The position numbers and the translations under genes are program-made. The notes beneath the pieces are model-generated. The model ran no database searches, was not told where the DNA came from, and worked only from the letters and a program-made list of their open reading frames with translations. A stretch of 56,723 nucleotides of DNA from Tubiluchus corallicola (taxonomy: Eukaryota > Animalia > Priapulida). The stretch spans positions 30,377-87,099 of the forward strand of contig JAQGDQ010000860.1 in the NCBI GenBank assembly GCA_030141605.1. Reading direction: 5' to 3'. How positions within the stretch are numbered: the stretch's first letter is position 1; the number at the start of each line of letters is the position of its first letter. Of the stretch, positions 1,653-56,285 are shown piece by piece.

Positions 1653-4600
1653 ACATGCAAAGTGTACACAAAGTCAGTTTACAAAAGGCATCATTGCAAG
1701 TTCTTTCCTTTATGGACTGTGTTTCCCAGGATGCTTATGCTAGTGGGAGTACCAAAAACATGTCAGTCTGCATGTACAAGAACCTTGTCTCTGTTTGTAT
1801 AGTAAGTATTTCAATCATGCCATTGTTTTAAATGATGAATTCTTAATAACTTATTTAGGCAGTTTTGCTGCTTAATTTATTGTGTTCAAATTGTGCAAGA
1901 GTAAGAAAATTTTCTTATAATATGTCACTCAGTACCAAGCAAACTGGTGAGCTACCAGCGCAGGTCAGCGCCTCTGTGTTTAGACTTTATGCTGGGCTTC
2001 TTAAGTTACATTTGCATGATAATTCTGATGAACCTGTGCGATTGCGATACTCGACTCTCTCCACCTATCAGAGGCGGGCACCTTTATAGGGTGCAAAGTC
2101 AATTCTTCTTTAACGCTGATCTTTTATTTGTCTTTTCCAAGTTTAATGTCTTTATTTGTCTTTATCCTGTATTCCATGCATTCGTTCACTAGATTTCTTA
2201 TTTCTGGCAATCCTTCCTTTTCACTGTTCATTAATACATCTGAGTTCAAAATTTTTTCCATTCTCCATATCTATAACATCTAAGCGTATGTTCAGTAGTG
2301 TCATCATCTTCCTCACACACTGGGCATAATAACTGATCCTTAAACTCATTCTTGTAGTTCATTGGGATTGAGATACATGTGATTGAGGCCTCCTGTTGAG
2401 CAAATTGTGTTGTATTTTTGCATGGTGATTCTGTAAGGTACGACTCAGCAGGCGTCCTCAACAGCAGGCTCATCAGAATTACCATGCAAATATAGCTCAA
2501 ATAGCCCAACTGAAGGTTTAAACACAGGTGTGCTCTCCTCCACTTAATGACCTGCACTTAAATGTCTTACAGAATCAACTGTTTGTATTGTGTAAAAATG
2601 GCACAGTAAAAATGACACAGGAAAAAATGGCACAGTAAAAATGACAAAGGAAAAAATGGCACAGAAAAAATGGGCACAAACCGAGAAGTAGGCAAAAATG
2701 GCATGGGAATAATGCAATTGGAAAAAAATGGCACAGGTAAAAATGACAGTATTTTATTTACAGGGTGATTCCAGTGGACCCGTGTTGGACCATACAGGTT
2801 AAGTAATGACAGCATTTTATTTACAGGGTGATTCCAGTGGACCCGTGTTGGACCACACAGGTTAAGTAATGACAGCATTTTATTTACAGGGTGATTCCAG
2901 TGGACCAGTGTTGGACCACACAGGTTAAGTAATGACAGCATTTTATTTACAGGGTGATTCCAGTGGACCCGTGTTGGACCACACAGGTTAAGTAATGACA
3001 GCATTTTATTTACAAGGTGATTCTGGCGGACCCGTGTTGGACCACACAGGTTAAGTAATGACAGCATTTTATTTACAGGGCGATTCTGGTGGACCCGTGT
3101 TGGACCACACAGGTTAAGTAATGACAGCATTTTATTTACAGGGCGATTCTGGTGGACCCGTGTTGGACCACACAGGTTAAGTAATGACAGCATTTTATTT
3201 ACAGGGTGATTCCAGTGGACCCGTGTTGGACCATACAGGTTAGGTAATGACAGCATTTTATTTACAGGATGATTCCAGTGGACCCGTGTTGGACCATACA
3301 GGTTAAGTAATGTCAGCATTTTATTTACAGGGTGATTCTGGTGGACCCGTGTTGGACTCTACAGGTGAACTAATGACAGCATTTTATTTACAGGGTAATT
3401 CTGGTGGACCCGTATTGGACTCTACAGGTTAAGTAATGACAGCATTTTATTTACAGGGTGATTCTGATGGACCCGTGTTGGACCACACAGGTTAAGTAAT
3501 GACAGCATTTTATTTACAGAGTGATTCCAGTGGACCCGTGTTGGACCACACAGGTTAAGTAATGACAGCATTTTATTTACATGGTGATTCTGGTGGACCC
3601 GTGTTGGCCCATACAGGTTAAGAAATGACAGCATTTTATTTACAGGGTGATTCTGGTGGACCCGTGTTGGACCACACAGGTTAAGTAATGACAGCATTTT
3701 ATTTACAGGGTGATTCCAGTGGACCCGTGTTGGACCATACAGGTTAAGTAATGACAGCATTTTATTTACAGGGTGATTCCAGTGGACCCGTGTTGGACCA
3801 CACAGGTTAAGTAATGACAGCATTTTATTTACAGGGTGATTCCAGTGGACCAGTGTTGGACCACACAGGTTAAGTAATGACAGCATTTTATTTACAGGGT
3901 GATTCCAGTGGACCCGTGTTGGACCACACAGGTTAAGTAATGACAGCATTTTATTTACAAGGTGATTCTGGCGGACCCGTGTTGGACCACACAGGTTAAG
4001 TAATGACAGCATTTTATTTACAGGGCGATTCTGGTGGACCCGTGTTGGACCACACAGGTTAAGTAATGACAGCATTTTATTTACAGGGCGATTCTGGTGG
4101 ACCCGTGTTGGACCACACAGGTTAAGTAATGACAGCATTTTATTTACAGGGTGATTCCAGTGGACCCGTGTTGGACCATACAGGTTAGGTAATGACAGCA
4201 TTTTATTTACAGGATGATTCCAGTGGACCCGTGTTGGACCATACAGGTTAAGTAATGTCAGCATTTTATTTACAGGGTGATTCCAGTGGACCCGTGTTGG
4301 ACCACACAGGTTAAGTAATGACAGCATTTTATTTACAGGGTGATTCCAGTGGACCCGTGTTGGACCACACAGGTTAAGTAATGACAGCATTTTATTTACA
4401 GGGTGATTCTGATGGACCCGTGTTGGACCACACAGGTTAAGTAATGACAGCATTTTATTTACAGGGTGATTCTGGTGGACCCGTGTTGGACTCTACAGGT
4501 GAACTAATGACAGCATTTTATTTACAGGGTAATTCTGGTGGACCCGTATTGGACTCTACAGGTTAAGTAATGACAGCATTTTATTTACAGGGTGATTCTG

Positions 4601-5625
4601 ATGGACCCGTGTTGGACCACACAGGTTAAGTAATGACAGCATTTTATTTACAGAGTGATTCCAGTGGACCCGTGTTGGACCACACAGGTTAAGTAATGAC
4701 AGCATTTTATTTACATGGTGATTCTGGTGGACCCGTGTTGGCCCATACAGGTTAAGAAATGACAGCATTTTATTTACAGGGTGATTCTGGTGGACCCGTG
4801 TTGGACCACACAGGTTAAGTAATGACAGCATTTTATTTACAGGGTGATTCTGGTGGACCCATATTGGACTCTACAGGTTAAGTAATGACAGCATTTTATT
4901 TACAGGGTGATTCTGGTGGACCCGTGTTGGACCACACAGGTTAAGTAATGACAGCATTTTATTTACAGGGTGATTCTGGTGGACCCGTGTTGGCCCATAC
5001 AGGTTAAGAAATGACAGCATTTTATTTACAGGGTGATTCCAGTGGACCCGTGTTGGACTCTACAGGTTAAGTAATGACAGCATTTTATTTACAGGGCGAT
5101 TCTGGTGGACCCGTGTTGGACCACACAGGTTAAGTAATGACAGCATTTTATTTACAGGGTGATTCTGGTGGACCCGTGTTGGACTCCACAGGTGAACTAA
5201 TGACAGCATTTTATTTACAGGGTGATTCTGGTGGACCCGTGTTGGACTCTACAGGTGAACTAATGACAGCATTTTATCTACAGGGGGATTCTGGTGGACC
5301 CGTATTGGACTCTACAGGTTAAGTAATGACAGCGTTTTATTTACAGGGTGATTCTGGTGGACCCGTGTTGGACTCTACAGGTGAACAAATTGGAATAATC
5401 TCAATGGCGGGTATAGACTGTGCAAGCGTGAGCTTAGCTACAAGAGTTCCATTTTACTTGGATTGGATTGAAGATGAAGAGGCACATGGAGAAAGAGTAA
5501 TCAATCATTACAAACCTTTCAATCCATCTTCGCAAGGAGGAGCCACAGTTTACGATTTTTCGTTAAAAAATTATGCCACACTATTTACAATGCTGTTGTG
5601 TGGAGGACAGATCTTGACAATGTGA
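1653..5625 (+). CDS. Serine protease gene A (S1 family, chymotrypsin-like, 5'-partial): exons 1653-1801 and 5347-5625
   Basis: TTCTTAG|exon (..SLQKASLQVLSFMDC..MSVCMYKNLVSVCI)|GTAAGT joins in phase 0 to TTTATTTACAG|GDSGGPVLDSTGEQIGIISMAGIDCASVSLATRVPFYLDWI.. This ends in a hydrophobic tail and TGA, with AATAAA at ~5706. Intron phases match genes B and C. Confidence 0.9.
2250..2380 (-). mobile_element. Non-LTR retrotransposon 3' fragment
   Basis: Translation PMNYKNEFKDQLLCPVCEEDDDTTEHTLRC resembles the C-terminal CCHC region of LINE ORF2. Confidence 0.55.
2593..2745. repeat. Short degenerate array of AAAAATGGCACAG, probably a transposon-derived subterminal repeat
   Basis: The motif recurs about 8 times. 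A loosely similar array (AAA-TTGGTAC-AG) lies at ~39145-39400. Confidence 0.55.
2742..5385 (+). repeat. 63-bp tandem array (42 units) made of gene A's splice acceptor plus the first ~12 codons of its catalytic-Ser exon
   Basis: Unit GTAATGACAGCATTTTATTTACAG|GGTGATTC(T/C)(G/A)GTGGACCCGTGTTGGACCACACAGGTTAA. The first acceptor AG ends at 2763 and the last at 5346, a difference of 2583 = 41 x 63. Confidence 0.97.
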
Positions 5626-6497: not shown

Positions 6498-8466
6498 AGT
6501 ATGGGCTCATCCAAGCGGATGTTCATGGTGACACTGTATGTGAACAGTTACCAAGACTATGTACTTCTAAAGTGAATCACTGAATCCACTGACGTCAAGC
6601 ATAACCTCAGTCATTCTCGTTGACTGCCCAATCAGCGTGCAAGATCTTTCACATCCCTACAAATTAACGCCGCGACTTTCCGGGACATTTAGCTGCGTTT
6701 TGACCACCATTATCGGAGGAAACATTGACCTGGTACCAGATTTTCTTATTGTCGACTGAAATTACAAGTGAATTAGTGTCAATACATAGTGTGGTTTCCT
6801 TTATTATAGGAACAAATACATAGAGCTCACGTCTCTAGGTGGCTGATTAAACCATTTTGCTACAGTAAAATAGTTTAGTTTAGCTTTGACTTTGCAAGTT
6901 GGGTCAATTATCAAAAACGACAAATTAACCTAACGAGGTTAGACTGGTCGTATTACGTTGCCTTTCAGTTCTTAAACTTCAAACGGTCTACCCGAACAGA
7001 ACTGAGAAGAAATTGATAACAACAGATAATGAAGCCCGCGTTTAGCAAGTATGAATGATTCAAGGTTAAACCTGCATGTAAAAATGGTTGCCTATGCACC
7101 TCTAAGCAAGTTTGCGCAGGTTGTAAGAAATAAGCTAGTCGGTCTTGGTCAACAATAGTCGAGATCTACCCCGGGAGTTGATGGGACGCATCCATGGGAG
7201 TCCGTGACAACTGGAATGATTATGAATAAGCAAGCGTATTCATAGAAACCCCCAAAATTAGGCTAAATGTCTTTAGAAATTTTTAAGCAAAACGTATTCA
7301 TTTCTGGCAAGTTTTTATAAACGTCAATGAGATCTTCACGGTTGAAATTAATTCAAATATTGTCGAAACTTACATTATATACAAACGTAATATTTATTAA
7401 TTTTACGCTGTTTTTCTAGTTATACTTACGGTTAAAAGATGCCATTGGTAAGACTACATCGCAGGCACGATAAATAATTATGTTCGTATGTTGAGAGGCA
7501 CATACTTTTTGCTCATTTATCATAAATCAAGGTTAAGTGGCTTCATTTCTTTACAATTATACTTATGTCTCTGCATTTTGTAGTACTTTGAAACTTGTGT
7601 TTAAATAGGCTATACATTGTGTTTAAATAGAAGACTCATTTTTGGCTGCTTGAAGGGTTAATTTCCTGCAAAAATAGCTGCAAAATCGTATGAAAAAGCG
7701 CAATCAGTTTATCTGCTGATTAGTTGTCTGCTGTCGTTTTCAAAAGACAGCTGTTCTCTTGTTCCGAATGATTCTAGGCGTGCTTACGTCACAGCGGAGG
7801 CGGAGTGCTAGACTTATATGCTTGATGTCAACAAGGTCGTCTTAGCTACACTTACACGTGAGTAGGGTTATTTCGCAATGTGATAAACAGCCTGAATCAG
7901 TACGACTAACAAAACCACTCAGAGCAACAACCGACAAGGGGTCACCCATTCGTTAAATACAATGCAAGGCAGACCAAACATCTTGTTCCTCTGTATCATT
8001 TGGTCATTTTGACAGGTTTCCATGTACCTTTAAAAATTTACAGTTTAATTGCACTGCTACATTGTACTATAAGATCGCGACCTCACTAACAAAGGGATAT
8101 TATACTCCATGACGCAGTCTTATATTTAAAGACCCTTCCACTTTCCTTCTTATTGCCTTGTGTTAAGCAACACTGCCATTTGTGACTAGGAAATGGTCCC
8201 TAAGCAGCAGTTACTGATTGAAATCATGGCTTTTAGTGAAGCAGAGCAGTTACCATCGTGGCGCTGAAAACGATCACAAATTTTTGCCTAAACAGCAGAT
8301 ATTTTTCATATCATTTATTAACAATTTACAATCCATACAGTTACAATTGCAATTATTAGTTACAAAACATTACATAAACAATGCAATACATTGCAATGAA
8401 GAAAAAACTACGTAGGCAAAACCCCTCACATGGGCTATAATCGTCATCAAAATACACAATAAAATG

Positions 8467-8497
8467 CAATAATAATAATAGTAATAATAATAATAAC

Positions 8498-8547
<50 letters not shown>

Positions 8548-8597
8548 CAACAACAATAACAATAACAAGAATAACAACAACAACAACAACAACAAAC
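8467..8597. repeat. (AAT)n/(AAC)n microsatellite
   Basis: Directly visible. Confidence 0.95.
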
Positions 8598-10067
8598 AGT
8601 ATTTACAGTGGTTAAATATTACAATTATATTATGTTACGTTAAGTTTATTACAAAGTTTATTTACACATTTTAACAATAGATGGCGAGTGTCGTCATTGT
8701 CCTTGAAAGTGCAATCAGGATCGAGTTATCAAACTTGGGAAACTTGCCAGAATTCAGTACTTTTTGGGAAAAAAGTGAAATTATAGTTTTGATACTTTAA
8801 TACTTGCAATATATTAAAATTTTAACTTTAACCATAAGCATGGATGTCTAACTACACATTTTTAAAAAAAGCCCCCTTATGTAAGATGCATAAAGCCGTT
8901 TACTGAGATAAGTTTTTACTCTTAACGGGAAATAATTATTTAAGAGTAATTAAGGCTTTTATTAAATATATTGAAAAAGCGTTTTAAGACATGATGAACA
9001 ATATACCATGTTATGATCATATCACTAAAATGAATCCTAATGAATGACAAATTATTTTTAATACTAATCATTAAAGTTTTCATTTAAGTAACTAATATAA
9101 GATTGACATCAAATGGATAACCCACTGTACCCATCAAAGGATTGGTAAGACTTGGTTTCAAGTCACTTCTGTATTGTATACGGTATTTTCAGTGTAGTGC
9201 ATGTATTAAAATTTCTCATAGTTTTTACACAGGAGGGCACACAAATATTCAGAGGGGGGGGTGGTGGCACAAAATTCAAAACCGATCACACTAGTTGCCT
9301 CATGGCATTGCTTTCGCTAAACTCCCGTTCTTTTCACAGGACTATGAAAAGTTTAGATTGGTTTACACAGCTAGATGGCAGCACGAGCCATATTCATTCC
9401 AACAGTTTTGATGGCAGTCCATATTTAAATTCTTGCTGGTTTTTGCATCCAGATGGCAGCACCGACTTTAAAATCTGCCTGAAAGTGTAGACGACAATCC
9501 ATGCTTGAAGTTGTTGTCATTTTTCTTCAACACCAAATGTGAAATCCTTACATAGTTGAAAGATAGAAAACCTCTTTTGGCCACAGCCTGAAAAGAGAAA
9601 ATGAACAATGCCAGTATATGCATAAAAAAACTTGTGGTTAAATCATATAAATGTTGCAGACGATATTAAGTCTTTCTTTAATTCAACCATTTCAAACTCA
9701 TATTGAGCGTTTCTGCAGATTAACCAATAGTGCGGCTCGAAAAACTTTTTCGTCAATCAATTGGAATCATCAGAGGGATTTTCGAGACTTGACCAAACTA
9801 GGAAAATGCCTAGTTTTAATTTTTTTTTGAGTAATGGGAACACCTTGTAGGTGTTACTCCTTTTGTAAACATAATAATACGGTAAAGAACTTCAGTATCT
9901 GTTGGGATTATATAGGCTTTTAATTGGTATTTATTTTCTACACTTGACTCACAATATTCGTTTGTATGTGGATTTTGCCTCTAGTAAACGTTAAAATGTT
10001 TTGTTTATTTGTTTGTAATGTAATGTGATTAATAGTGGTTTAATAAACAAACGTTCATATTTAGCCA

Positions 10068-10945
10068 TTCATCTATCTAGAAACCGGCGCTAATGGGATT
10101 CCATTTGCTGACGATGTAATTGGGTTAAGGAAAAAAAAGGGGAAATGAAGTTTCCAGAATGTTTGCTATTCTGATGACTGCAATTGCCAGATGATACATT
10201 GTGGAGACAGAGCATCGTATTGCAGATCATATCCTGCCTCTTTATCCTGAGATTACCATGTCAGACAACGAGCTTCAGCTAAAGACTAAAAAGCAGAAGC
10301 TAATGAAAATGATGACTGGGAAAGATTCAGTAATCTTGACTTATATCATCTGTGACATAGACAGCTGGTGTAATTAGATAAGACGTGAGTCCACCCATCC
10401 GTTGCTCCAGACGATAGACCACCTATTTGGATTTCAAAATTTGTTTACAAGAGCCCATGAGTTCTTTGCTAACTTTGTCAAGTATCTCATAGATGGAAAT
10501 TATGATGTGCTTGATAAGAGGGGCCATGATTTTGACCCAGAAACCACTTTTAAGAAATTTAGAGGAGGATTTGAGGGACTTAAGCAGAAACCTTGGACTG
10601 TCCATACTGTCAATCTAATCAAGCAGGCAGTTAAGCAAACAGGGATTAAATTTTATATCCTCGATCAAGGTGACAATCAAGACCTTGTGCTCATCCATCA
10701 AGTCAGAGATAAAGAAGAAGACGGATCAATTCCTCCAGAGGAATGGAAAAGAGTTACAGAAGCAACTGAACTATTCCTCAAGTTAATTAAGAGAAAATTT
10801 GGAGAAGTAGGTTTGACTTTAAAGTTAGAAGAAACATTGGTTTCAGGAAAATTCTTAAACTATGGGAAAGACCTTTATTACAACGGACGGCAACTGTCCT
10901 TGAGTTTAAAGAGAGTTTGTAAAGGAGGAATTTTCCCATTTCACT
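10068..10945 (+). pseudogene. Endogenous viral element: RdRp core of a Mononegavirales/Jingchuvirales-like L protein, decayed
   Basis: Ordered L-protein motifs: NGIPFADDVIGLRKK, (frameshift ~10131-10152) SRMFAILM, ETEHRIADHILPLYPEITMSDNE, motif A CDIDSWCN, motif B GGFEGLKQKPWT, motif C QGDNQ, motif D GLTLKLEET..YGKDLYYNG..SLKR. In-frame stops at 10192-10194 (TGA) and 10375-10377 (TAG). Confidence 0.93.
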
Positions 10946-12018
10946 ATTCTCTCAATTTCCAGTGTTTCAAAATGTTAAAAAAACAAATTATATGGGTAAT
11001 TTGGTCATAACACTGTCTGACAGAAATGTTCTCATAGAAAGGCAAAATTTCGTTGCTTTCATTAGAAGAAGGAAATGTGCCTTTCAGGCAGAATTAAACG
11101 ATGCTAAAATAGAAATTTATCAATACGGTGCCGATGGTAACGCTAAAATAATCAAATTGAAACTGTAAGTAATCTGATTAACTCATGAATGCACGAAACC
11201 AATACTAAACTAGTAGACTGTGTCAAAAAACTGTAGTAATATTCCGTTTCTGTGACAGGAGATTCTTTAAATGACTGCTTTTCACTGGGATGTGTGCAAG
11301 CCTGATATACACCGGTGTGGAACGAACCTATCAAGTTTTTACATATTCAATTCAATTTGGCTTTATTTACACAATTACGTGCAATGTACATTGGCAAAGC
11401 AATATATTACACGTTAAATTCAACATAAACCGCAAAAATTACAGTAGGTTGTATGCAAAGTTATTTTTATAGACAAAAATTAATATTGAGATACGTTATA
11501 CTGATACAGAAATCACAGTTACATAAAAATTGTATAATTAGCAATGAAAAAGGAAAAATTTGTTAAAAGTAGTAGGTATCAGTACCAACTTTTTATATGA
11601 AAGATTATAAAAAAATAACAGAAAGAGAGTTGAAAATAATTGAGGTTAGAGTCTGCTGCCAAACTGCTGATTTCTTCTTCCCTAGAGACTGGAGTTGTTG
11701 CCAGAACTTTCTTGCATTGATGCCATAGATGTGTAAATTATAAGTTGTAATCAGAAAGGCTACAAAAGCAAATAAATGGCATGAAAAGCAAAGCCTGCAA
11801 AAAACAAAGAAACAGTATTAAAAACAATTAACAACTATACATTATGCAATGCAAAAGTATACCTAGATATTAAAAAGTCTCGATTCTTGAGTAGATCTTG
11901 TTGAACACCATCTGATTTTGCATTTTGTCACCGGAATACGTGAACAGCATCATGTCCTAAAATTGTGTTCTTGACTCAGAAAGCATACAGAACTTTATAG
12001 AATACAGTACTAAGGTAC

Positions 12019-12540
12019 TGTTTGGGCTTTCAAAACCAAATTTGAAGCTAGATTACATTTTGCTCTTCTTCCTTCTTTATTTACCAATACATATCATTCC
12101 TGTTTGGGCTTTCAAAACCAAATTTGAAGCTAGATTACATTTTGCTCTTCTTCCTTCTTTATTTACCAATACATATCATTCCATCTAAACAAAACCATAA
12201 ACAAATGACATAAAAAAGCCCTAGCCAAAAGTCAATTTTACATAATTCAGAGTTTCATACTGCACCGTTGCATTAATCAATAAATAGCTGTTATCTAATA
12301 GTAAATTTAAATTCTATAAAGTAATTTTAGTATATACGTACGTTTTTAGCCCCAAATTATAAACAATTGCAACAGATAACGACAACATTTAATCAACCCA
12401 CCATGACACGTCCTCACTCACACGCCTCTGACACCGATTAAACTGATCACGTGTCCAGGCCAAAAAATCACCACAAGGTGGCCAAAGCCAACAACAAGTG
12501 CAGGCCGCAAAGCACGCCAATGCCAGATTTCCAGTACAGG
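12019..12540 (+). mobile_element. Dispersed non-coding repeat element; inverted copy at 41669-42134; its first 82 bp are tandemly duplicated (12019-12100, 12101-12182)
   Basis: High similarity to the reverse complement of 41669-42134 (e.g. GCCAATGCCAGATTTCCAGTACAGG, TGTTTGGGCTTTCAAAACCAAATTTG). Confidence 0.8.
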
Positions 12541-12962
12541 TACAGTATATGTAACTTAATGTCACTATGTAATTTGTATACATGTGTGTAACAAATGATG
12601 CAGACTGATCGGTATAATGATTATGTGCAAAGCAGCCTTAAAAGCGTTGTACTTTAAATGGAGGTCTGAAAATGGTTTAAAATGTTCATAGCTATGTGGC
12701 GAGTACAAGACAATGAAAGACATAAATGCAAAATTGTATTAGAAACTTTTACATTATTAGGCATCCATATATATGTACTTGAAGACTTCTTTAACTCACA
12801 ACAGAAAAAAGTTAACATGACCATGGCACACAGTAGAAATTTTTGTGACTTTGAATTAAATTGCTGATATATAGTTATTTAAATAATCTACGTATATCTT
12901 CACATGCAATGAAGTGGCATAAACTTTCTAAGATTTTAACTCTTAAGAAGTCTTAAGTCTAA

Positions 12963-14423
12963 GAACTCATAGACTTCTTACGCAGGTTTAGTGATGTCAA
13001 CAGGTATGGAGCCAATGAAGAAGTCATAGACTTCTTACGCAGGTTTAGTGATGTCAACAGGTATGGAGCCAATGAAGAAGTCATAGACTTCTTACGCAGG
13101 TTTAGTGATGTCAACAGGTATGGAGCCAATGAAGAAGTCATAGACTTCTTATGCAGGTTTAGTGATGTCAACAGGTATGGAGCCAATGAAGAAGTCATAG
13201 ACTTCTTACGCAGGTTTAGTGATGTCAACAGGTATGGAGCCAATGAAGAAGTCATAGACTTCTTATGCAGGTTTAGTGATGTCAACAGGTATGGAGCCAA
13301 TGAAGAAGTCATAGACTTCTTACGCAGGTTTAGTGATGTCAACAGGTATGGAGCCAATGAAGAAGTCATAGACTTCTTACGCAGGTTTAGTGATGTCAAC
13401 AGGTATGGAGCCAATGAAGAAGTCATAGACTTTACGCAGGTTTAGTGATGTCAACAGGTATGGAGCCAATGAAGAAGTCATAGACTTCTTACGCAGGTTT
13501 AGTGATGTCAACAGGTATGGAGCCAATGAAGAAGTCATAGACTTCTTACGCAGGTTTAGTGATGTCAACAGGTATGGAGCCAATGAAGAAGTCATAGACT
13601 TCTTATGCAGGTTTAGTGATGTCAACAGGTATGGAGCCAATGAAGAAGTCATAGACTTCTTACGCAGGTTTAGTGATGTCAACAGGTATGGAGCCAATGA
13701 AGAAGACTTCTTACGCAGGTTTAGTGATGTCAACAGGTATGGAGCCAATGAAGAAGACTTCTTACGCAGGTTTAGTGATGTCAACAGGTATGGAGCCAAT
13801 GAAGAAGTCATAGACTTCTTATGCAGGTTTAGTGATGTCAACAGGTATGGAGCCAATGAAGAAGTCATAGACTTCTTACGCAGGTTTAGTGATGTCAACA
13901 GGTATGGAGCCAATGAAGAAGTCACAGACCTCTTACGCAGGTTTAGTGATGTCAACAGGTATGGAGCCAATGAAGAAGTCATAGACTTCTTATGCAGGTT
14001 TAGTGATGTCAACAGGTATGGAGCCAATGAAGAAGTCACAGACTTCTTACGCAGGTTTAGTGATGTCAACAGGTATGGAGCCAATGAAGAAGACTTCTTA
14101 CGCAGGTTTAGTGATGTCAACAGGTATGGAGCCAATGAAGAAGACTTCTTACGCAGGTTTAGTGATGTCAACAGGTATGGAGCCAATGAAGAAGACTTCT
14201 TACGCAGGTTTAGTGATGCCAACAGGTATGGAACCAATGAAGAAGTCATAGACCTCTTACGCAGGTTTAGTGATGTCAACAGGTATGGAGCCAATGAAGA
14301 AGTCATAGACTTCTTACGCAGGTTTAGTGATGTCAACAGGTATGGAACCAATGAAGAAGTCATAGACCTCTTACGCAGGTTTAGTGATGTCAACAGGTAT
14401 GGAGCCGATGAAGAAGTCATAGA
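12963..14423. repeat. 57-bp minisatellite, about 26 units (five 51-bp variants, one 55-bp variant)
   Basis: Unit GAAGTCATAGACTTCTTACGCAGGTTTAGTGATGTCAACAGGTATGGAGCCAATGAA. Confidence 0.95.
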
Positions 14424-19192: not shown

Positions 19193-20710
19193 TTATTTAG
19201 CGTGAAGTCTCAAATGTCTCTTTAGACTGCCTGCCTGAGTAAATGATGAACCACACTGACTGCAACAAAAAGGTTTTTCTCCGGTGTGAATTCTCAAATG
19301 TCTCTTCAAATCATTCGACCCACCAAACGTAGCACCACATTGACTACACTTAAATAGTTTTAATGGTTTCTCTCCAGTGTGAACTCGTGAATGCACTTTC
19401 AGAGTACCTGCTTGGGTAAACGCAGCATCACACAGACTACACTTGAATGGTTTTTCTCCAGTGTGAGTTCTTGAATGTGCTTTCAGATAGGCTGATTGAG
19501 AAAATGCGGCATCACATTGACTACATTTAAAAGGTTTTTCTCCCGTGTGAGTTCTTAAATGCCTTTTCAAATAGCTATGTTGAGTAAACGCAGCGTCACA
19601 ATGACTACACTTAAAAGATCTTTCTCCTGTACAAGCTCTTAAGTGTCTCTTCAGATGGCTGGCAGAAATAAAGGCAGCATTACATTGACTGCACTTGCAT
19701 GGTTTTTCACCAGTGTGGCTTCTGGAATGTACTATCAGAGAGCTTGACCCAGTAAATGCAGCACCACATTGACTACACAAAAAAGGTTTCTCTCCAGTGT
19801 GAATTCTTGAATGTACTTTTAGATAACTTGACGTTGTAAATGCGGCACCACACTGAACACACTTAAATGGTTTTTCTCCAGTGTGAACTCTCATATGTAC
19901 TTTCAGATGACTTGACGTAGTGAATGCGGCATCGCAATGACTACATCTAAAAGGTTTTTCTCCAGAATGTATTTTCAAATGCCATTTCAAACCATGCTTA
20001 CTTGCTAATACAGCACCGCATTGCTCACATATGAAAGACATTTTTTTTGCTTTGCTCAGAAGATGTGTTTTTGGTGGTTCGTGGGTAGAAGCAGCTACAT
20101 TTTCATTGTGTCTAGCAGCTAAATCAGACTGAAGATTGAATGATGGTGACTCTTTTCTTGTATGATTTACAGTTGTTTGAAGTTTGTCATGTGTGAATCT
20201 AGAATCTTCATTCAAACAATTATCTGCTGTAGTCACTTTGACACTGCAATCACTTTTCACATGTAAAGGGTTATGTCTGTCACTCACATGTGATATTTTA
20301 CGGATGTCCTTGTTTTCCATCACATTACCTGCAAGGCCATCATGTCCGGTTTTTATAAGCATTTCACACATTTGGAAATCACAATCTGCTGTTTTGTATT
20401 TGCTGTTGTTTTCTGCATTAACTGCTTCAACATCGCTTTCTGTTTTTGCTTGAACTTTGTCAATTTGCACATCATCATCATCTATTGCTTCAACATCACT
20501 TTCTGTTTTTGCTTGAACTTTGTCAATTTGCACATCATCATCATCTATTGCTTCAACATCACTTTCTGTTTTTACTTCAGCATTGTCAATTTGCACATCA
20601 TCATCATCATCATCATCATCTATTGTTTCATCATTAATGCAATTCCTCATGGAATCATATGAATGACCAAGTTCAGTTTTTACTTCAGCAGGAATTACAG
20701 CTCGATCCAT
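19193..20710 (-). CDS. C2H2 zinc-finger protein, 505 aa: acidic N-terminus with three 21-aa repeats, then 10 tandem fingers
   Basis: Single long ORF with CxxC..HxxxH fingers and TGEKPF linkers; finger 5 ends HLRAC. A likely 5'UTR intron runs from donor GAG|GTAATT at 21416 to acceptor TTCTTACAG at 20741. Confidence 0.93.
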   Translation of the reverse strand: MDRAVIPAEVKTELGHSYDSMRNCINDETIDDDDDDDDVQIDNAEVKTESDVEAIDDDDVQIDKVQAKTESDVEAIDDDDVQIDKVQAKTESDVEAVNAENNSKYKTADCDFQMCEMLIKTGHDGLAGNVMENKDIRKISHVSDRHNPLHVKSDCSVKVTTADNCLNEDSRFTHDKLQTTVNHTRKESPSFNLQSDLAARHNENVAASTHEPPKTHLLSKAKKMSFICEQCGAVLASKHGLKWHLKIHSGEKPFRCSHCDAAFTTSSHLKVHMRVHTGEKPFKCVQCGAAFTTSSYLKVHSRIHTGEKPFLCSQCGAAFTGSSSLIVHSRSHTGEKPCKCSQCNAAFISASHLKRHLRACTGERSFKCSHCDAAFTQHSYLKRHLRTHTGEKPFKCSQCDAAFSQSAYLKAHSRTHTGEKPFKCSLCDAAFTQAGTLKVHSRVHTGEKPLKLFKCSQCGATFGGSNDLKRHLRIHTGEKPFCCSQCGSSFTQAGSLKRHLRLHAK

Positions 20711-20949
20711 TTTTGATGAAAAAAACTTCGAAGTTTATTTCTGTAAGAAAAAATTAATCAAATTATTTTCAAATAAAGCAAGTCACTTGAATCACATGAT
20801 GTCGACTGCATTATAAATGAAATAATAATTAGGTATGATTTTGCAAGCGTCTTCTCTAGACTGTACATGTTTCTATTGTAAATGACTTTTGTGGTTTCTT
20901 TTAATACTTTATGTGTGCCATGTAATTCTGAATTCATGAGCTGAAAGAT

Positions 20950-27190: not shown

Positions 27191-30100
27191 TCAAAATACA
27201 ATATTCTGTAACATGTAATTAATTATGTAGATAATCAGTGTTGCTTCGTAAACAGAGGCTGTCGCAGCTACAGGTTTTGCGAATGGAAACGGGTTTTCCA
27301 TGATGACGTCAGGTGAAATGGGACAATACAGTGACACCACAAGAGTAATCCACTCCCAATAATAGGCAACTCTTATTGCCACATTAACAGAAGTTTCATC
27401 GACGCCAACCAGCCCATCTTCGACATACTGAGTTGTTGTGATAAAAATTCCAATCACTTCGCCTGTCTTGTCTAAAATCCAAGGTCCACCTGAATCACCC
27501 TGAAAACAAATCTTACGATTGGACATCTGTCAATTTAGAGAAAAATCATGAACATTAAGGGACATAGCTACAGTTATTAAAGATTTTAATCAGCTCGTGC
27601 CACAGAATCAACTAATCAAATTAGTTTTTTATCAGGAAAAAAATATTACGGTTACTGAATGGAAAAATATAACAAGATGAAGAAATTTCTGATTATATTT
27701 CTTACCTAAACAAAGCAGATTAATGTAATTTAATTTATGGTTATTTGAAATATCGCTGTATCTCGGTGATAACAATAGTAAGAATAGAGGCCACATTTTA
27801 TATTGTGAAATTAGGTGGAATACAAGTAATTGACAAAATTTTTACTAACATCTTCCACTACGACCTATAGCACTGTATACGTACGTGCACAGTCAAAATA
27901 AAATAAATACAGTTAGTAGATAGCAGATCGCAATATTACAACCTCGCTTCAAAACTACAAAAAAAAAACGTGTACACAGCCACAAACGGCCATACACATT
28001 AAAAAACCAGTTGATTAAATTATGTCACTATCTAACTAAAACGCAAAATTCAAAGATTTCAATGCTTCATCAGTTAGGGTGAAGCATTAAATAATCATAA
28101 TAGCATTTATTCAACCCATTAAGCTTTTATCGCTGACTGTAAACAGGAAACTAAAACTACATAACTGAGATTATTTTTACCTCACTTCTTCCCTAAGTAC
28201 CAGGCAGGGCAACAGCTCGTACCAATTCAAAATTCTTCCAAATAACTTCTCAAACTGAAGACGTAAGCATTACAGCTAGACTAATATTGATTCAAATACT
28301 TCAATAATGAAGCTTTGAAATTTTTGAATTTTTAAAACTTATTATCAGTTTTACATACGAATGCACCATAGTGTCCATAATGATATGCACAGACATGAAA
28401 TTTCAGGTTTTCTTCCGCGCAATGACCTGCATCAGTAACTGTGAAAGACACTTTCTTCAAGACATCATAAAATTCTTCTTGTGATGCCGAATCTGAAATG
28501 CTAAATCTGTTGAGTGATAAAAAACGGCGTCTGTTTCTTAAAGCCCCCTAAACTTAGGAATTGTTTGGCATGTGCACTTACATTGGATTAAGAACTGAGC
28601 AGTCGATGACAAAGATCCCTACCTGAATACAGAAGCGCTACTGAAAGTAATTACATTGCCCTCGATTCTCATGAATGTATTTATAGTTGTGCTACAGGAC
28701 AGCAGGAGGCGCTAAATTTCGAAGGAAGCCAGATTATCAGGCGATAGCTAAAAATATTTTCTTCTATTATCTGGGGAAATAGTGTACGCAAATATCATTT
28801 CATATTCATATAAGAAACACTTTCTAAAACCTGCCGCCCGCATTTAAGTGCCAGATAACTACAATTATTACATGAAAAGTACATCACAAACAGTTGCACA
28901 GCCTGGTTAAATACAAGTGCTATGCCAATGTAAATACCAAAGACCACGCACTACTATGTAATAGTACTATTAATACACCTTAAATAACTGATTATTGCTC
29001 TTAATATACATACATGTAGTATGAAGTATCAGCCTAAGGCGTTCATTAAGGATGTTTTTTTAATTTTGAGTATTTTTGCTTAGCAATTTCTGTAATGTGA
29101 CGTTGTGCTATTGAAGTAAATCACCTTTCACAGGCTAAAATGCCTACATTTTATGTGCTTGTATTTGTCTAATAAATTCGGGAGAAAAATTGCCAAATTT
29201 TGGCGATTTTATGAATCAAATTTGTGCAGCAGACTGTGCAGGGCGAATTCAAAAATGAAGTAGACGACTGTACAATTGTTTGGTACACTTTCTTCATAAT
29301 TATTATTATTATTAACAAATTGATTTATTAGTTTACAATGCATATCTTGCGATTTCAGTTACAAATTTAAAAAGAAATTGAACAAAATCAACAACTACAT
29401 TTTTTTGTCTGGTTTGACATAAGATCTTTTACTTGTATAAAACTCTCATCCCACCTGTTATATCAGGTCCCCATCCTAGAAGAGTAACTTCATCATTTAT
29501 GTAAGTAAAGTTGTTACACATTGGTAGTTCGGCAGGTTTAATATCATCAGAAAATTCAACATGTTTGTTTAATCGAGCAACAGCGATGTCGTGGAGATAC
29601 CAAGGATCACCTTTCATGTTAAAATCTTGATGACGAAAATACCATGCAATCTAGAATAAAAATATTGAAATTAAAGTAAACTCACTCACCTTTTATAACA
29701 TCTGACACAGAACAAAATCTATTCCAACATGCAAAATTTTGAGCTCTGGCCTAGAAAATGGGATATTCAATTAGTTCATTTGAGGGGCTGAGTATCAGTC
29801 AAAACTTTACTGTTCAAATGAAGGTATAATAGTCAGGGCCTATTTCAGGGGAGGAAAGTGGGGATACTTCCCCGGGGCCTCACCCTCTAGGGGGGCCTCG
29901 TGCCGAGGTAACATTTTTTTCGGTGAACGCTCTTTCAGTGCGTTTAAAAATATCAAAACCGACAATTGTTCGACGACGACCCAGGATCGGTTAAACGATC
30001 TGTCAATTATTCGAATGAATGTGGATGTAGCAAGAGGCTTTGATTCTAACGAGTTAATTGATAAATTTGCGAAACAAAAAGTCAGAAGATGGCTTGTACG

Positions 30101-33100
30101 GAAGTGAGAGTACAGTATTACATATTGCAAAGATGTTGTTTTTTATTTTACTATTTGACAAGTATTAAGGACTGGTCTTGAGAATAAAGCAGTTTTTCTT
30201 TCAATTGTTCTTTCCTTTAACAACTGTATAACTCCATATTTTCTCTTCGAAAATGCTTCTCCGGATTTCTAGCAGTTTCTAAGGCTGAAATAGGCCCTGA
30301 TAATAGTACACTTAATCAAGTAAGTGTCTAGCGTTCTGCTACATCAGAAGTTGAAATGTTCTAAGTGCTTTATGGAGGGAATATTATAAATAAAAAAATT
30401 AATTGACAAAATCTGGCTAAACAACGGCTATTGACTCTTCTTCTTTTTTCCTTGCGTATTTCACCAATAATTCAAAACAAATGTCGCAACATGTATCTGT
30501 CTTAAAGGAAATAATAATAAATTTTCACACTTCACACTGCTAAGTACAGAATCAAAATTCATCTTTAACAACAAAAGAGCATACCATAGTTGTCAGAAAA
30601 GTGAAGTGGTTACAAAAGCCTTGCATACGCCTACTCTTATGATAAGATCACAAAAATACAGTTGCATAGAATATACAAGAAAATATAGCCTACCCAGCGG
30701 TCTGCCTTTGTGTCAAATATTTTGTTGCTCCCAAGAAATACTTTCATGTGTCTTCCAGGTGGCGCGCTACAAAATAAACGCATCTAGTTTCTTATTAATG
30801 ACATTTTACATTGCAGTTTTGATACCCTGATACAAAAGCAATAGAGGAATAATATAACAAAACATAAGTTTATTACAGCACTCCTTTCAGCACATATCTC
30901 AGGTCACACGACGCACACCATATTTTTTAAGTTGTTAGTGGTATTAAAGAAAGAATACATTAATTTTTAATTTTTAAAATGCAGTTATGTATCAGACTGA
31001 AGAGTAAAAGTCCGCTTCATGTAACAATTTAATTATTATTCGTTTAAGTCTTTGTCCTGGTTTCAGGTTTATTTTTTTTGTTTTAAGCTCAATTGATGAC
31101 TGGTACACAGGTATGAAAAGTGTTTGACATAAAGAAATAATAATATTGGCACACATTACAATTATCACACATTTGAATAAAAACAACAACAATAATACTT
31201 ACTCATGTAAACAGTGTGCTGATGTTAATATGTATAGGTCATCGATTAATGTACCTCCACAAATCGAATAGCCAAAACCAAAACCAACCTGTATGCCAAC
31301 CTTTAGAAAAACAGTGTGGGATATAAATCACGCACTTTGCTTAGTGCATACGTCTGCACTCATGCACGCACGCACGCACACATAATAAAAATTGAAACAA
31401 AGAAACAATGGACAAGGAATACTATGATAAAGTGTGAAATAACAGAATAAATCCGAATTACATATATTTTCTAAAGATTTAAGCTTCAATCATAGAAAAT
31501 CGTGTCACGGCAGGAAACAAAACATACCATGAATGGATATTCCCTCCCAATCACATCCCGTCCACCACTGATCCTCGGATTAGCGGGCAATTCTGTAATA
31601 GGTTAACAGCTAAGGTCATTTAGATACAGACCATAGATGATTGATTAAAACTAGTTTGGTAACGAGCAAGTCTTGAAGCAAGCCTCTTAACGGCTGCTCA
31701 GGTCAGAACTGTGCTTTTTGAATATCTCATGTCCAGCTTGTAGTGTGTCTAACGAATTATCTTCAAATAATTAAAACATCGTTTATCATCTACACTGGGA
31801 TGTTAGATTATGATGTTATGAACAGATTTTCTTTTATTCTGCAACTCCACCTGATCAATTCCCTGGATAAAGAGATCTGATAACTTACTGTTTTGCTACT
31901 TTAACAAACCCTTTTGTTATTAAATTAATCTTGCATTTTGTGTGTTTCGTGAAAGTTTTCTTTTTTGTCATATTCAATATATTACAGTCGACTAATATGA
32001 CATGATTTAATGTAAAGTTGACCTTTGTGTTTGTTTAGGAATTTTGATGGTATTAAAATTCATTTGATTAATAATACATGAAAATGTTCAATAAATTATT
32101 TATTATTAATTATTTATTAATAATAATAAAATAATAATAAACAGCAAATATATATCATACTTCAGTGTTGGGAATAAACTGATGCTGTCAAGTGCTGCCA
32201 CCTTTTAGGCCTTTAGGCCTTGAATGACTTTCTATCTTTAAATTTGTTAGACTGTAATTATATACTTAGGGGATTCAATCTGGTTTTATGCAGATGTCAG
32301 TAGGACAGTAGACTGTTACACTGTCTAGGTGTTCGCTGTCTGTTTATACTTAATTTTGCCGAATTCAGTGATTTGGTAAATGCTTGTGACCTGTTTCTGC
32401 ACTTCTCTGATGCCTTTAAGTTGAAATGCCAGGGCTGGCCAATATACGTAAGTTAAATATGATTATTTTTCTGTGATTTAAAAGAGTTTAAATTCTATTT
32501 CATGTAACACAGTTTACTACTTTACAATTGTTGTAATTTGTAAAACTTGTGTAATTCATACCTAAAAAATTTAATATCTTGATTTAGTTCCTATTTTATA
32601 ACAATCTTCTATAATCATCTGAATTTGAAAAATGCTTTTATTTTATTTTCTCACAATAAATAATCATTAGCAAGCCAAAGCGGAATTTGAAGTTTTGTTT
32701 TGGGACATTCAGTCAGCTACATTCAGTGTGAACTTTATGTAAGACAGAGAGTGTCATATCGTTAACTGTTTTGTAGTATTTATGTTTATATGTAATTAGC
32801 ATAAAAAATTGTTCATATTCATTTACATTCATATTACATCATTCTCATAAATATTTTCATATTTTACCAATGTGAAAGTTAAAACTGTAAATACAAAAGA
32901 GTAAAAGAAACTTAACTACAGTATGATTTTTCACTATATTCACATCCTATTACGAGTACAAGGTTAGACAACTAAGAATAAATAAAAGTTTTTTAAGTGG
33001 TTCAGGTAGGAATCCACCTCTGCAATGCCTACAAGGACCAAGCAATAGCTTAGCAATCATTTTTCAACTTGCTTTAGATTCCATCATCTGTAATTTTACC

Positions 33101-33373
33101 ATTTCTACATCTTATCATCTACACTTTTCACAATTTGTAATAGAATTGCATGTTTTGATAACACTGTTATAATGCTGTAGTGCTGTTCTATTGTTTAGAC
33201 TAAAGATTAGACATTGGTTAGGAATGTTTTTAAAACTAAAGTATTCATACCTCTAAACGAAACTAACCTTTTTCAAAGAAACCACTGGATGTAGAAGACA
33301 GAGACTTTGTAAACAGGCATGTGTTAAAGCAAATCCATATTGTAAGCACTCTCAAAAATGTAACTAGATTCAT
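27191..33373 (-). CDS. Serine protease gene B (S1 family, ~326 aa, intact triad, signal peptide, hydrophobic C-tail): exons 33373-33268, 31592-31528, 31300-31203, 30766-30694, 29650-29455, 28492-28359, 27499-27191
   Basis: All junctions are GT-AG and frame-consistent (total 981 nt): MNLVTFLRVLTIWICF.. / PR-ISGG..YPFM / ICGGTLIDDLYILTSAHC / KVFLGS / LHDIAVARL..LLGWG / LKKVSF..HVCAY / GDSGGP..RVAYYWEWI. Confidence 0.92.
29834..30299 (+). mobile_element. Internally deleted hAT DNA transposon in intron 4 of gene B
   Basis: TIRs CAGGGCCTATTTCAG/CTGAAATAGGCCCTG with a perfect 8-bp TSD ATAATAGT. The internal remnant ERSFSAFKNIKT..QDRLNDLS..IDKFAKQKVRR (~29925-30090) matches the hAT C-terminal dimerisation domain. 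Confidence 0.92.
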
Positions 33374-34856
33374 TTGGGCTCAAAGCAAAAAAGACATTAA
33401 TGACAATGTCGCTGGCACATCAATGATGGGAGTTTTAATACTGAATAATGGTCAGCTATAAAATGTTTCTCCTGCAAAACATGACTGGTTGCAGCTTATA
33501 CTGGAAATTATTCATCATTAAAGTTTATGCACCATAATTAACATGCACATATACTATGTGGTTCTCACGAAAATGTGGTGCCAGAATTAGTGAAATAGAA
33601 CAATTGTTCCAGAATTTGAAATTGCTCTACACTCGAGATTTTTCAAACACAATTGCTCTAAACTGATGACAATGAGGAAAATAAATGAATGTAAGAAGGA
33701 ACAAAAACTGAACTAACAGTAGGGAAAAATGCAACACATATATGACAATAACTAGACACAGATCATAATCTGGCGTAAACTACATTCCAAACTAATTATG
33801 GCGTGCACTTTTCAAAATAACTGAAGTTCCTTTGATACAACAATTAACAGTTTAAAATTACCTTAATTTTCAAAATACATCCAGAATAAAATCAACTTAT
33901 CTTTAATGTCACCATCTTAGAAGCAACAGAAGGTACGAGGTACCTTATAGGTCATTGTCATTGCTTTTCTTTTTTTCTCTCTATTTATGTTCACAGCTAC
34001 AGTGGCAAAATTACCAAAAGAATCAGCTGGTAACTTTTCTACTCTTTAGTAATTTTTATGAGAAAATTTAAATTGTAAAATGTGTGCTTTATCAATTGTT
34101 AACAAGAGCAAAAATACCACCAAATACAAGTACTCTGAAGGTAATGAATCTTACAGCTGACCCCAAGTATGCCTGTCTTTAATGTAATTTTGATCTTGTC
34201 GCTCATGTTTTCTCATAAAGGTCGTGTAAACTTTTGTAAGACATCCTGGGTTTAGTTTGTTTCTTTCTGGAAGTTTTCTCGGGCACATTTACTCTAAGCC
34301 ATCAATGTATTTGATAATGATAATGTAGCAGCCTTTAATGCACCTTTCAATTGCTTACTATAAATGGGAACTTGAGTAGAAGAGCCACTTCCATAGCAAT
34401 TTTTGGTTTTTTGAGATGGAATACTGCTCGCTTTACTAATCTTGAGCACTGATATTTTTTATAATTTTATTATTGAGATAATGGGCATGATTATGATGAT
34501 GGTAATGTTGATGTTGTTGAAGATATTAGCTAATAAGGTCTAGAAATTGTGAGTGAAAAATTGTGCATTTGAAATAAATAAAATGAGCACATTAAAATTT
34601 TATATTTTATTGTGATATGCTAAAGCATAGAAGTAAATGTTGGAAATAAGACAAAACTTCACAATTTTTTTCATATTGAAGAAAAATAATTTAAAAGCGA
34701 GTAACAGGATTTATTTAAAAATGTGTATTTAAAAATTGAAAGAATTTTAATATAAACTCATATTTTGTTACATCAGTGTGTATTATGTAACCATTTCGTA
34801 GCAAGTTTCATCAAAGATTTTTTACATATAAGTAATAATCAGCATTTTTTCTTATT

Positions 34857-45276
<10,420 letters not shown>

Positions 45277-48508: not shown

Positions 48509-48799
48509 CAATCTTAAGAAGTTTCATGTTGTCGATTGGAAGCGTTGTTGTAGTGTGCGCATGCGTGGCTACAGGGGCTCCGATAGTTTTGTCGAGTATA
48601 CTACACCAAAGTGAAACTTAGATGTAAAATTTGTTATCAGTGTTTGCGTCAATGTATGAAAAATGCAATGATGTATTTTTGAGCACTGGTACTGAATTCA
48701 CTTGTAAATAAAATGAGAAAATAGTAAGTAACTAAGTAAATTTTTTTATAAATAATAATTACAGAGATATAAGTATCATTCATAGCCTTTGTAAAATAT

Positions 48800-53491: not shown

Positions 53492-55809
<2,318 letters not shown>

Positions 55810-56285
55810 GTATGTGTTATTTCTGAGTATTCATTGAATGTTACAAAGGGTCATGAACATCATTAATTTGTTTTTGCAACCTGAAACCAGATGGCGGTAA
55901 AATCGTCCATTATCGAGGTAGCAACTGCGCTGTTAGTAAATCAACTGCGCAGACGATTTCTTCATCAAGAAAATGTGAGATTTGATACAACTTTCAAGAA
56001 AAATGCAATTAGGTGAAAAAGTAAATGATTTATAACGGTACTCTTGCACTTCTGAATTCCAAAAATTAATCTGCAGTAGTGAAGAGTTATTTTAGATGAG
56101 ATGGAAAAAGATTCATTAAAATGAAGATCTTGAGAAAGAGACTCACTACAGAATAGCGAGATGTAGACGAACGCTACCACTTACTGTCAACTGTTCACAC
56201 TCGTGAGTTTTTTTCTGACAGCTAAGTCACAAATGTGAACAGTTGTACGAGTTACTGTCGGTAAGTTTATTGCGACATTCCAACA

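What the first reader, a model, noticed from the sequence alone, without database searches (positions are those of the whole stretch)
10068..10945. Endogenous negative-strand RNA virus L-polymerase fragment covering motifs F, A, B, C and D
Seen: about 290 codons carry the ordered signature IGL..K, RMF, HILPLYPEITM, DxxxWCN, GGFEGLKQKPWT, QGDNQ, LKLEET, YGK. The match extends ~330 bp upstream of the listed ORF, through two stops and a frameshift. Known: GDNQ and GGxEGxxQKxW are hallmarks of Mononegavirales/Jingchuvirales L proteins, which lack a DNA stage and integrate through host reverse transcriptases. Inference: this is a fossil of a possibly undescribed virus lineage of this host. It is in mRNA sense on + and has no obvious poly(A) or TSD. 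It could be a source of antiviral piRNAs.
Basis: partly seen in the sequence, partly recalled or inferred. Interest (0 to 1): 0.8.

Follow-up and report, generated by a model that had tools for sequence, protein, structure and literature searches.

The report
Fossil polymerase of novirhabdovirus-like sister lineage
An animal chromosome carries a broken 870-base piece of the polymerase gene of a negative-strand RNA virus, an ordinary kind of viral fossil, but its closest relatives are two other short fragments (one from a sea spider) that are likely fossils too, and together they likely mark an undescribed virus lineage related to the fish novirhabdoviruses.

Summary
Confirmed. Window ~10065-10938 (+) is the catalytic core of a Mononegavirales L gene (PF00946, E 4e-56). 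Contigs of a DNA run bridge both junctions at flank depth, with two alleles at the right junction. Variants among copies are 6 synonymous of 23, as neutral drift predicts. So it is integrated, on both haplotypes of that sample, and dead as a protein. The flanks show no poly(A), no TSD above chance and no other viral gene. The new point is its ancestry. Its nearest relatives among 1.84 billion proteins are an unnamed 298-aa fragment (53%) and a Pycnogonum litorale scaffold protein (46%); full-length L proteins reach 42% at most. These three form a firm clade (100/97). That clade was sister to novirhabdovirus-like L in all three trees that held them (97/90, 90/94, SH 89), but AU tests reject no alternative (p 0.06-0.12). 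Known invertebrate gammarhabdoviruses could not be included. piRNA function is untested. Verdict: an ordinary element from a probably undescribed lineage.

The parts
10065..10938 (+). Endogenous fragment of a mononegaviral L gene (RdRp core, about residues 500-770 of a ~2100-aa L). Left end uncertain (10060-10090), right end 10923-10938.
   Evidence: PF00946 E 4.3e-56; tblastn extents of 150 homologs; GC 38% against 31-32% in the flanks
10065..10133 (+). Upstream piece in its own frame, ending in IGLRK (start of motif F)
   Evidence: (weak, E 0.11)
10127..10159 (+). Short middle piece of motif F in a second frame (contains EMKFPE); frame changes on both sides, in an A/G-rich run
   Evidence: matches P0001 EKEREMKFPE; an X1 contig at depth 140 has no difference here, so not an assembly error
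10156..10938 (+). Main reading frame, 261 codons, two in-frame stops (10192-10194, 10375-10377)
10354..10374 (+). Motif A region, DIDSWCN (unusual DI..WC form)
10564..10599 (+). Motif B region, GGFEGLKQKPWT (KQ.PW form seen only in the three-member clade, 3 of 432 cores)
10666..10680 (+). Motif C, QGDNQ
10810..10875 (+). Motif D region, GLTLKLEETL to YGKDL, of the form shared with novirhabdovirus-like L
9997..10059 (.). Short host interspersed repeat next to the left end
   Evidence: many unrelated contigs lie only here, depth about 1000-1500 against 140
10975..11015 (.). Short host interspersed repeat near the right end
   Evidence: depth 2200 in X1

Best explanation
This is a germline-integrated, broken fragment of the L polymerase gene of a rhabdovirus-type negative-strand RNA virus, likely copied to DNA by a host retroelement reverse transcriptase, likely drifting neutrally since, and likely derived from an undescribed lineage that is sister to the gammarhabdoviruses (novirhabdovirus group). 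Shown: L identity, the four breaks, bridged junctions, two alleles, and a three-member clade with a sea-spider scaffold protein and an unnamed fragment. Inferred: (1) A host RT made cDNA of viral L RNA. This follows from these viruses having no DNA stage. Both ends are internal to the gene, with no poly(A) or TSD, so template switching or end-joining capture, or later trimming by deletion, fits better than a full LINE-primed mRNA copy. (2) It makes no working protein. (3) The placement next to the novirhabdoviruses, at about 0.6 on its own.
For: Identity. Integration: an X1 contig at 9848-10316 joins host flank to viral sequence at depth 139.8, against 138.6 and 126.5 for flank contigs. Two X1 contigs at 10892-11035 (depth 93.6 and 95.5, one with 5 differences and gaps) bridge the right end. 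The surroundings are animal: trypsin exons, a C2H2 zinc-finger ORF and an RT fragment. Neutral decay: 6 synonymous of 23 single-site variants across sample S1 and run X3, against 20.7% expected for random changes (binomial p 0.61). Clade of three: 0.999, 99, 100/97, 98. Sister to novirhabdovirus-like rows in 3 of 3 trees that held them: 97/90, 90/94 under LG+C20, SH 89 (quick tree). Motif DI..[WF]C occurs in 8 of 432 cores (the three plus 5 novi-like); GL.LK..ETL in 6 of 432 (the window plus 5 novi-like); a novi-like HMM ranks the window first of 427 others (118.7 against 115.5). A motif-D pattern fitting the window matched 7 IMG/VR stretches, 6 of them novi-like.
Against: AU tests reject no alternative: the three outside Rhabdoviridae p 0.064; the three with other rhabdoviruses and novi apart p 0.075. 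The novi stem is long (1.6 changes per site), so long-branch attraction is possible. The motifs were chosen after seeing the alignment. In an unbiased scan the three carry 14-16% of 47 novi-diagnostic residues (mean 4%, SD 3.7%), but paramyxovirus-type rows carry as many, 7-8 of 47. By BLASTP the window ranks only 5th to 22nd of 427 for novi-like queries, and with the cores cut before motif C it is not among the top 18 others. The best full-length hits are ordinary insect and plant rhabdoviruses at 35-42%. X1 and X2 are one sample and may be the source of the assembly. That P0001 and P0008 are fossils is inferred from their short, altered frames and P0008's 9-Mb scaffold; their DNA could not be read.
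Confidence: 0.6

Rival explanations
1. Same fossil, but the three-member clade is an isolated deep lineage of Rhabdoviridae, or a separate family just outside it, and the join with novirhabdoviruses is long-branch attraction.
For: AU p 0.064 and 0.075; long novi stem; paramyxovirus-type rows share as many novi-diagnostic residues; best BLAST-type hits are other rhabdoviruses; only about 260 columns are available.
Against: The join persists under the LG+C20 mixture model and with five novi-like rows. The three are not joined to the other long rows (filovirus-, pneumovirus-, chuvirus-like). Shared rare motifs.
Confidence: 0.27
2. The fragment is kept as a template for antisense piRNAs against the donor virus (EVE-based immunity), so it has a function without a protein.
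For: Known for tick NIRVS (32 of 143 inside piRNA clusters; PMC6580184 passages) and for a probable rhabdo-like EVE in the dog whelk (negative-strand 5'U small RNAs; PMC6085071 passages). Neutral-looking codon changes do not exclude an RNA-level role. Both haplotypes of S1 carry it.
Against: It sits alone between ordinary genes. Pfam finds a single RT fragment among 146 ORFs, 38 kb away, and no other viral piece occurs in the window (0 hits outside the element from 1179 viral ORFs). That is not the look of a piRNA cluster, though decayed repeats are plentiful.
Confidence: 0.1
3. Assembly chimera or contamination by a live RNA virus.
For: No single contig spans the whole stretch; the holder runs X1 and X2 may be the assembly's own sample.
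Against: The runs are listed as DNA (guessed). Both junctions are bridged at flank depth, with two alleles. Two stops and two frame changes are read without difference at depth about 140. A second study's run (X3) has matching pieces at 93-99%.
Confidence: 0.02

Closest known systems
[quoted passage not shown]
   Same: A fragment of a negative-strand virus replicase gene in host DNA, broken, without the rest of the genome. 32 Mononegavirales-like EVEs were reported among 210 in six crustacean genomes, and replicase-derived NIRVS are the common kind in Ixodes.
   Different: The donor lineage is not a named rhabdo-, chu- or other group in my trees. Earlier scan notes suggest the host is not an arthropod (unchecked). 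No piRNA-cluster context is shown.
Gammarhabdovirinae: Novirhabdovirus (fish), Margarhavirus chemarfal (mussel; PMC12282299 passages) and tunicate novirhabdo-like viruses (bioRxiv 10.1101/2024.12.15.628590 passages)
   Same: Sister position in 3 of 3 trees; shared motif A form DI..[WF]C and motif D form GL.LK..ETL...YGKDL.
   Different: Only about 29-31% identical. It keeps GDNQ where the novi-like rows have GDNV, and has KQKPW in motif B. It is endogenous. The mussel and tunicate viruses were not available for comparison.
Pycnogonum litorale uncharacterised protein CAM1329725.1 (P0008) and unnamed Logan protein P0001
   Same: 46% and 53% identical; same motif A and B variants; one clade at 100/97.
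   Different: Other hosts. P0008 is annotated only as uncharacterised, and the genome paper's main text does not discuss viral elements (PMC12220506, term search; supplements not read).
Hymenopteran rhabdo-related virus 46 L (P0002) and rabies/VSV L (PDB 6ueb, 5a22)
   Same: Best full-length and best solved-structure matches; same motif order.
   Different: 38-42% identity at best; not in the window's clade in any tree. The labels rabies for 6ueb and VSV for 5a22: VSV is, rabies is recalled.

Membership tests
Mononegavirales L (RdRp core) | PF00946 above the curated cutoff, with motifs F, A, B, C (GDN), D in order | tested here: met
   190.7 bits against cutoff 27; motif positions
Endogenous viral element (NIRVS) | Viral sequence joined to host DNA in DNA data | tested here: met
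   both junctions bridged by X1 contigs at flank depth; possibly the assembly's own sample
Endogenous viral element (NIRVS) | Decay at the host's neutral pattern (stops, frameshifts, no synonymous bias) | tested here: met
   2 stops, 2 frame changes; 6 of 23 variants synonymous, p 0.61 against 20.7%; small sample
Endogenous viral element (NIRVS) | Orthologous copy at the same site in another individual or species | tested here: inconclusive
   X3 holds pieces at 93-99%, but no X3 contig joins them to the window's flanks
LINE-made processed copy (EBLN-type) | Poly(A) tail and target-site duplication | tested here: not met
   best left/right match equalled by 981 of 2000 random flank pairs; no poly(A) at the end; both ends internal to L
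Rhabdoviridae | L groups inside the family's clade | tested here: inconclusive
   inside at 99, 96/98, 85/89; the outside position is not rejected, AU p 0.064; named Xinmo-, Lispi-, Arto- and Bornaviridae were not identifiably in the trees
Rhabdoviridae | N-P-M-G-L genome layout, rhabdo-type G, virion form | not testable with these tools
   only an L piece is present; no N or G match in the window
Gammarhabdovirinae | Monophyly with Novirhabdovirus and Margarhavirus on L | tested here: inconclusive
   sister to novi-like rows at 97/90, 90/94, SH 89; AU p 0.075 for separation; Margarhavirus not available
Novirhabdovirus (genus) | Close L identity within the genus and GDNV motif C | tested here: not met
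   about 29-31% identity against 63-91% among novi-like rows; GDNQ
Jingchuvirales | L groups with chuviruses | tested here: not met
   chuvirus-like rows form a separate 100/100 side
piRNA-producing EVE | 1U antisense 25-31-nt reads, location in a piRNA cluster | not testable with these tools
   no small-RNA data reachable

The most novel reading that the evidence does not exclude
The fragment, the sea-spider scaffold protein and the unnamed Logan fragment are the only traces of an undescribed genus- or subfamily-level lineage of invertebrate rhabdoviruses, so far known only as fossils. This lineage is the sister group of all gammarhabdoviruses. It breaks the long novirhabdovirus branch and ties that group to Rhabdoviridae with a GDNQ-type invertebrate ancestor, which would extend its known hosts (fish, molluscs, tunicates) to arthropods and to this host's phylum.
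Probability: 0.4. Interest if true: 0.6.

Novelty: new member of a known kind. Interest (0 to 1): 0.42.

Why it matters
As an element it is ordinary: broken L-gene fossils are common in invertebrate genomes. Its value is as a record of a virus lineage for which my searches found no living member. The place of the novirhabdoviruses is an acknowledged taxonomic puzzle, because their L does not always cluster with other rhabdoviruses (PMC9179924, passages). Short-branched relatives are what could settle it. If the placement holds, these fossils give three such sequences and point to aquatic invertebrates beyond molluscs and tunicates as hosts in which to look for the group's origin. They also reinterpret an 'uncharacterised' sea-spider gene model as a likely viral fossil.

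Tried and rejected
Word-seeded protein search with the intact ORF among longer proteins: 0 of 372 candidates; with P0001: only itself among 695. IMG/VR and JGI scans for close relatives found none: 0 of 8 stretches; 0 of 150; 0 matches; 0 matches; 0 of 165. These exact-pattern scans miss divergent relatives. No whole genome is held, so other copies could not be counted. IMG/VR loci could not be named. The novi-like label for L203, L258, L276 and L315 rests on GDNV, Pfam rhabdo N and G for L203, and genome lengths of 11,034-11,550 nt matched to recalled novirhabdovirus lengths; L240 and L314 are labelled by 58-63% identity to them. TSD rejected (981 of 2000). Rfam on 7000-13000: 0 matches. AlphaFold with a 3-row alignment gave pLDDT 40 and was not searched further. 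The ESM Atlas first hit was PF00946 at 0.90, adding nothing. No RNA holder was listed, and X5 and X6 barely cover even the flanks: no evidence on presence or expression. No contig skipping the element (empty site) was seen in four runs, which does not prove absence. The mussel rhabdovirus paper PMC10231222 is not held. Literature searches that found no description of this clade: 'Pycnogonum litorale' + 'endogenous viral' 0 papers; 'novirhabdovir' + 'endogenous viral' + 'invertebrate' 6 papers, 5 listed, listing only; 'novirhabdo-like' 1 paper. The library lacks most subscription papers, and bioRxiv supplements are closed. The tree is the quick one, because the careful search did not finish. 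L001 was dropped from the trees because its core did not pass the length filter.

Full report
Observation. Read with X at its two stops (10192-10194, 10375-10377), 10141-10944 matches Pfam Mononeg_RNA_pol at E 4.3e-56 over profile positions 530-794. It matches 35 solved L-protein sequences among 37 PDB hits, the best at E 2.5e-25. The nearest relative, P0001, shows that motif F is split over three frames (IGLRK, EMKFPE, RMF), so there are two frame changes near 10125-10160, not one. The 150 best homologs align up to 10923-10941. The piece upstream of RMF is weak alone (no Pfam hit; E 0.11) but lines up with the G.P...IGL stretch of homologs back to about 10065. The element is thus about 870 bases, GC 38% against 31-32% beside it, and both ends are internal to the L gene.

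Surroundings. Of 146 non-repeat ORFs of 58 codons or more, Pfam found only the two L pieces, five trypsin exons, a C2H2 zinc-finger ORF (19196-20734, minus), an RT fragment (48736-49065) and three weak DUF hits. None of 1179 ORFs from the fetched viral loci hit the window outside the element. The element lies between the last exon of a + strand trypsin gene (ends about 5625) and the stop of the minus-strand zinc-finger ORF (19193). Short high-copy repeats flank it at about 9997-10059 and 10975-11015. The host is an animal. Earlier scan notes on this genome suggest a non-arthropod invertebrate; I did not test that.

Integration. Three of six listed runs hold the stretch or part of it, from two studies. 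In X1 a 469-base contig (9848-10316, depth 139.8) joins host flank to viral sequence, with no difference across the frame changes. Flank contigs have depth 138.6 and 126.5. Two contigs at 10892-11035 (93.6 and 95.5), one of them differing, bridge the right end, so both haplotypes of that sample carry the element. X1 and X2 are one sample and may be the assembly's source. Run X3, from another study, has four contigs on the element with 1 of 177, 12 of 242, 3 of 94 and 8 of 121 differences. The last leaves the window at 10938, where L homology ends, and goes on for 75 letters; none joins the element to the window's flanks. Of 23 single-site variants (10 in sample S1, 13 only in X3), 6 are synonymous, against 20.7% expected from random change (p 0.61). 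A replicating polymerase gene would be expected to vary mostly at synonymous sites (established knowledge), so these copies likely descend from one integration and have drifted since. There is no poly(A), and the best candidate TSD is equalled by 981 of 2000 random flank pairs.

Relatives. phmmer over 1.84 billion representatives gave 891 hits at E up to 0.001, of which 150 were listed. The top hit is P0001, an unnamed 298-aa Logan protein, at 53%. P0008 (46%, eighth by score) is a 164-aa 'uncharacterised' Pycnogonum litorale protein on a 9.0-Mb scaffold. Both are short, with altered conserved motifs, which suggests that they too are fossils; their DNA could not be read. Full-length L proteins reach 42% at most. 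I looked up 30 of the 150 directly, and named more. Apart from P0008, an insect transcript record and one hypothetical protein, the named ones are rhabdo-like or unclassified mononegaviruses. Pattern scans of IMG/VR and JGI found no close relative.

Placement. The window, P0001 and P0008 form a clade in every tree (0.999; 99; 100/97; 98). Outgroups were taken from IMG/VR and labelled by Pfam on their other genes as paramyxo-, filo-, pneumo- and chuvirus-like. With them, the clade falls among the rhabdovirus rows (99, 96/98, 85/89, 91) and away from chuviruses. In all three trees that held novirhabdovirus-like rows it was their sister: 97/90 under LG+G4, 90/94 under LG+C20 with five such rows, and SH 89 in a quick tree. 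Rare motifs agree: DI..[WF]C in 8 of 432 cores (the three plus five novi-like) and GL.LK..ETL in 6 of 432. A motif-D pattern matched 7 IMG/VR stretches, 6 of them novi-like. Against this: the motifs were picked after seeing the alignment; AU tests reject neither an outside-Rhabdoviridae position (p 0.064), nor separation from the novi rows (p 0.075), nor the pair lying outside the other rhabdoviruses (p 0.116); paramyxovirus-type rows share as many novi-diagnostic residues as the three do; and BLASTP ranks the window only 5th to 22nd of 427. The reference rows are unnamed and their novirhabdovirus label is inferred. I put the sister relation at about 0.6.

Mechanism. Shown: a dead internal piece of L in host DNA. 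From established knowledge: rhabdoviruses replicate without a DNA stage (PMC13249128, whole text), and such elements arise by reverse transcription of viral RNA and germline integration (PMC6580184, passages). Inferred: a retroelement RT copied L RNA, and the piece entered by template switching or end-joining, or was trimmed later. The lack of poly(A) and TSD, and X3's different continuation at the right end, fit this. An earlier unchecked note reports poly(A)-chained copies of negative-strand-virus-like mRNAs elsewhere in this genome, which would show the same process at work; I did not test it. The most likely present role is none. A piRNA template is possible, with precedent in ticks and a whelk (passages), but is untested.

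What is known. Mononegavirales EVEs are well described in crustaceans and ticks (PMC4573495 and PMC6580184, passages). Gammarhabdovirinae holds fish novirhabdoviruses and the mussel virus chemarfal virus 1 (PMC12282299 and PMC10458741, passages). Tunicate novirhabdo-like viruses branch at its base (bioRxiv 10.1101/2024.12.15.628590, passages), and its placement is called a conundrum (PMC9179924, passages). Invertebrate relatives of novirhabdoviruses are therefore not new in themselves, and this clade could nest among them; I could not obtain those sequences. My searches found no paper describing endogenous members or the sea-spider copy.

Verdict. The element is real and correctly read: a new member of a known kind. 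The lineage it records appears undescribed and may bear on the origin of the novirhabdoviruses. Interest 0.42.

Noticed in passing
window 2742-5373 (+): A 63-nt unit repeated about 42 times holds a splice-acceptor-like TTTATTTACAG, the start of a trypsin catalytic-serine exon (GDSGGP or variants) and a GT donor-like end. The last copy runs on into the real final trypsin exon (PF00089). This is an array of duplicated acceptors or would-be micro-exons in front of the catalytic exon.
   Followed up: partly
window 27194-41200 (-) and 55537-55863 (+): A cluster of intron-containing trypsin-like genes: at least two tandem copies on minus (one with GDAGGP in place of GDSGGP at about 35180, so likely catalytically dead) and another starting on plus.
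   Followed up: partly
window 19196-20734 (-): A 513-codon single-exon C2H2 zinc-finger ORF with about ten fingers and three 21-residue acidic repeats near the N-terminus.
   Followed up: no
window 48736-49065 (+), 50314-50691 (+), 36853-37047 (-), 41430-41783 (-): Decayed non-LTR retrotransposon pieces: an RT fragment (PF00078, E 5e-8) and C-terminal stretches that look LINE-like by recalled motifs.
   Followed up: no
window 12961-14423: A 57-nt tandem repeat (26 copies) with long open frames on both strands (357 and 382 codons); Pfam hits are repeat artefacts.
   Followed up: partly
P0094 (Logan, 2216 aa, 13,118-nt contig) and L001: An unnamed long-branch L that grouped next to the window's clade (80 and 89, unstarred); IMG/VR locus L001 is 49% identical to it. 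A candidate further basal member of the same group.
   Followed up: partly
L240 and L314 (IMG/VR): Two identical environmental novirhabdovirus-like L fragments, only 58-63% identical to the four genome-length novi-like records; possibly an unnamed gammarhabdovirus.
   Followed up: partly
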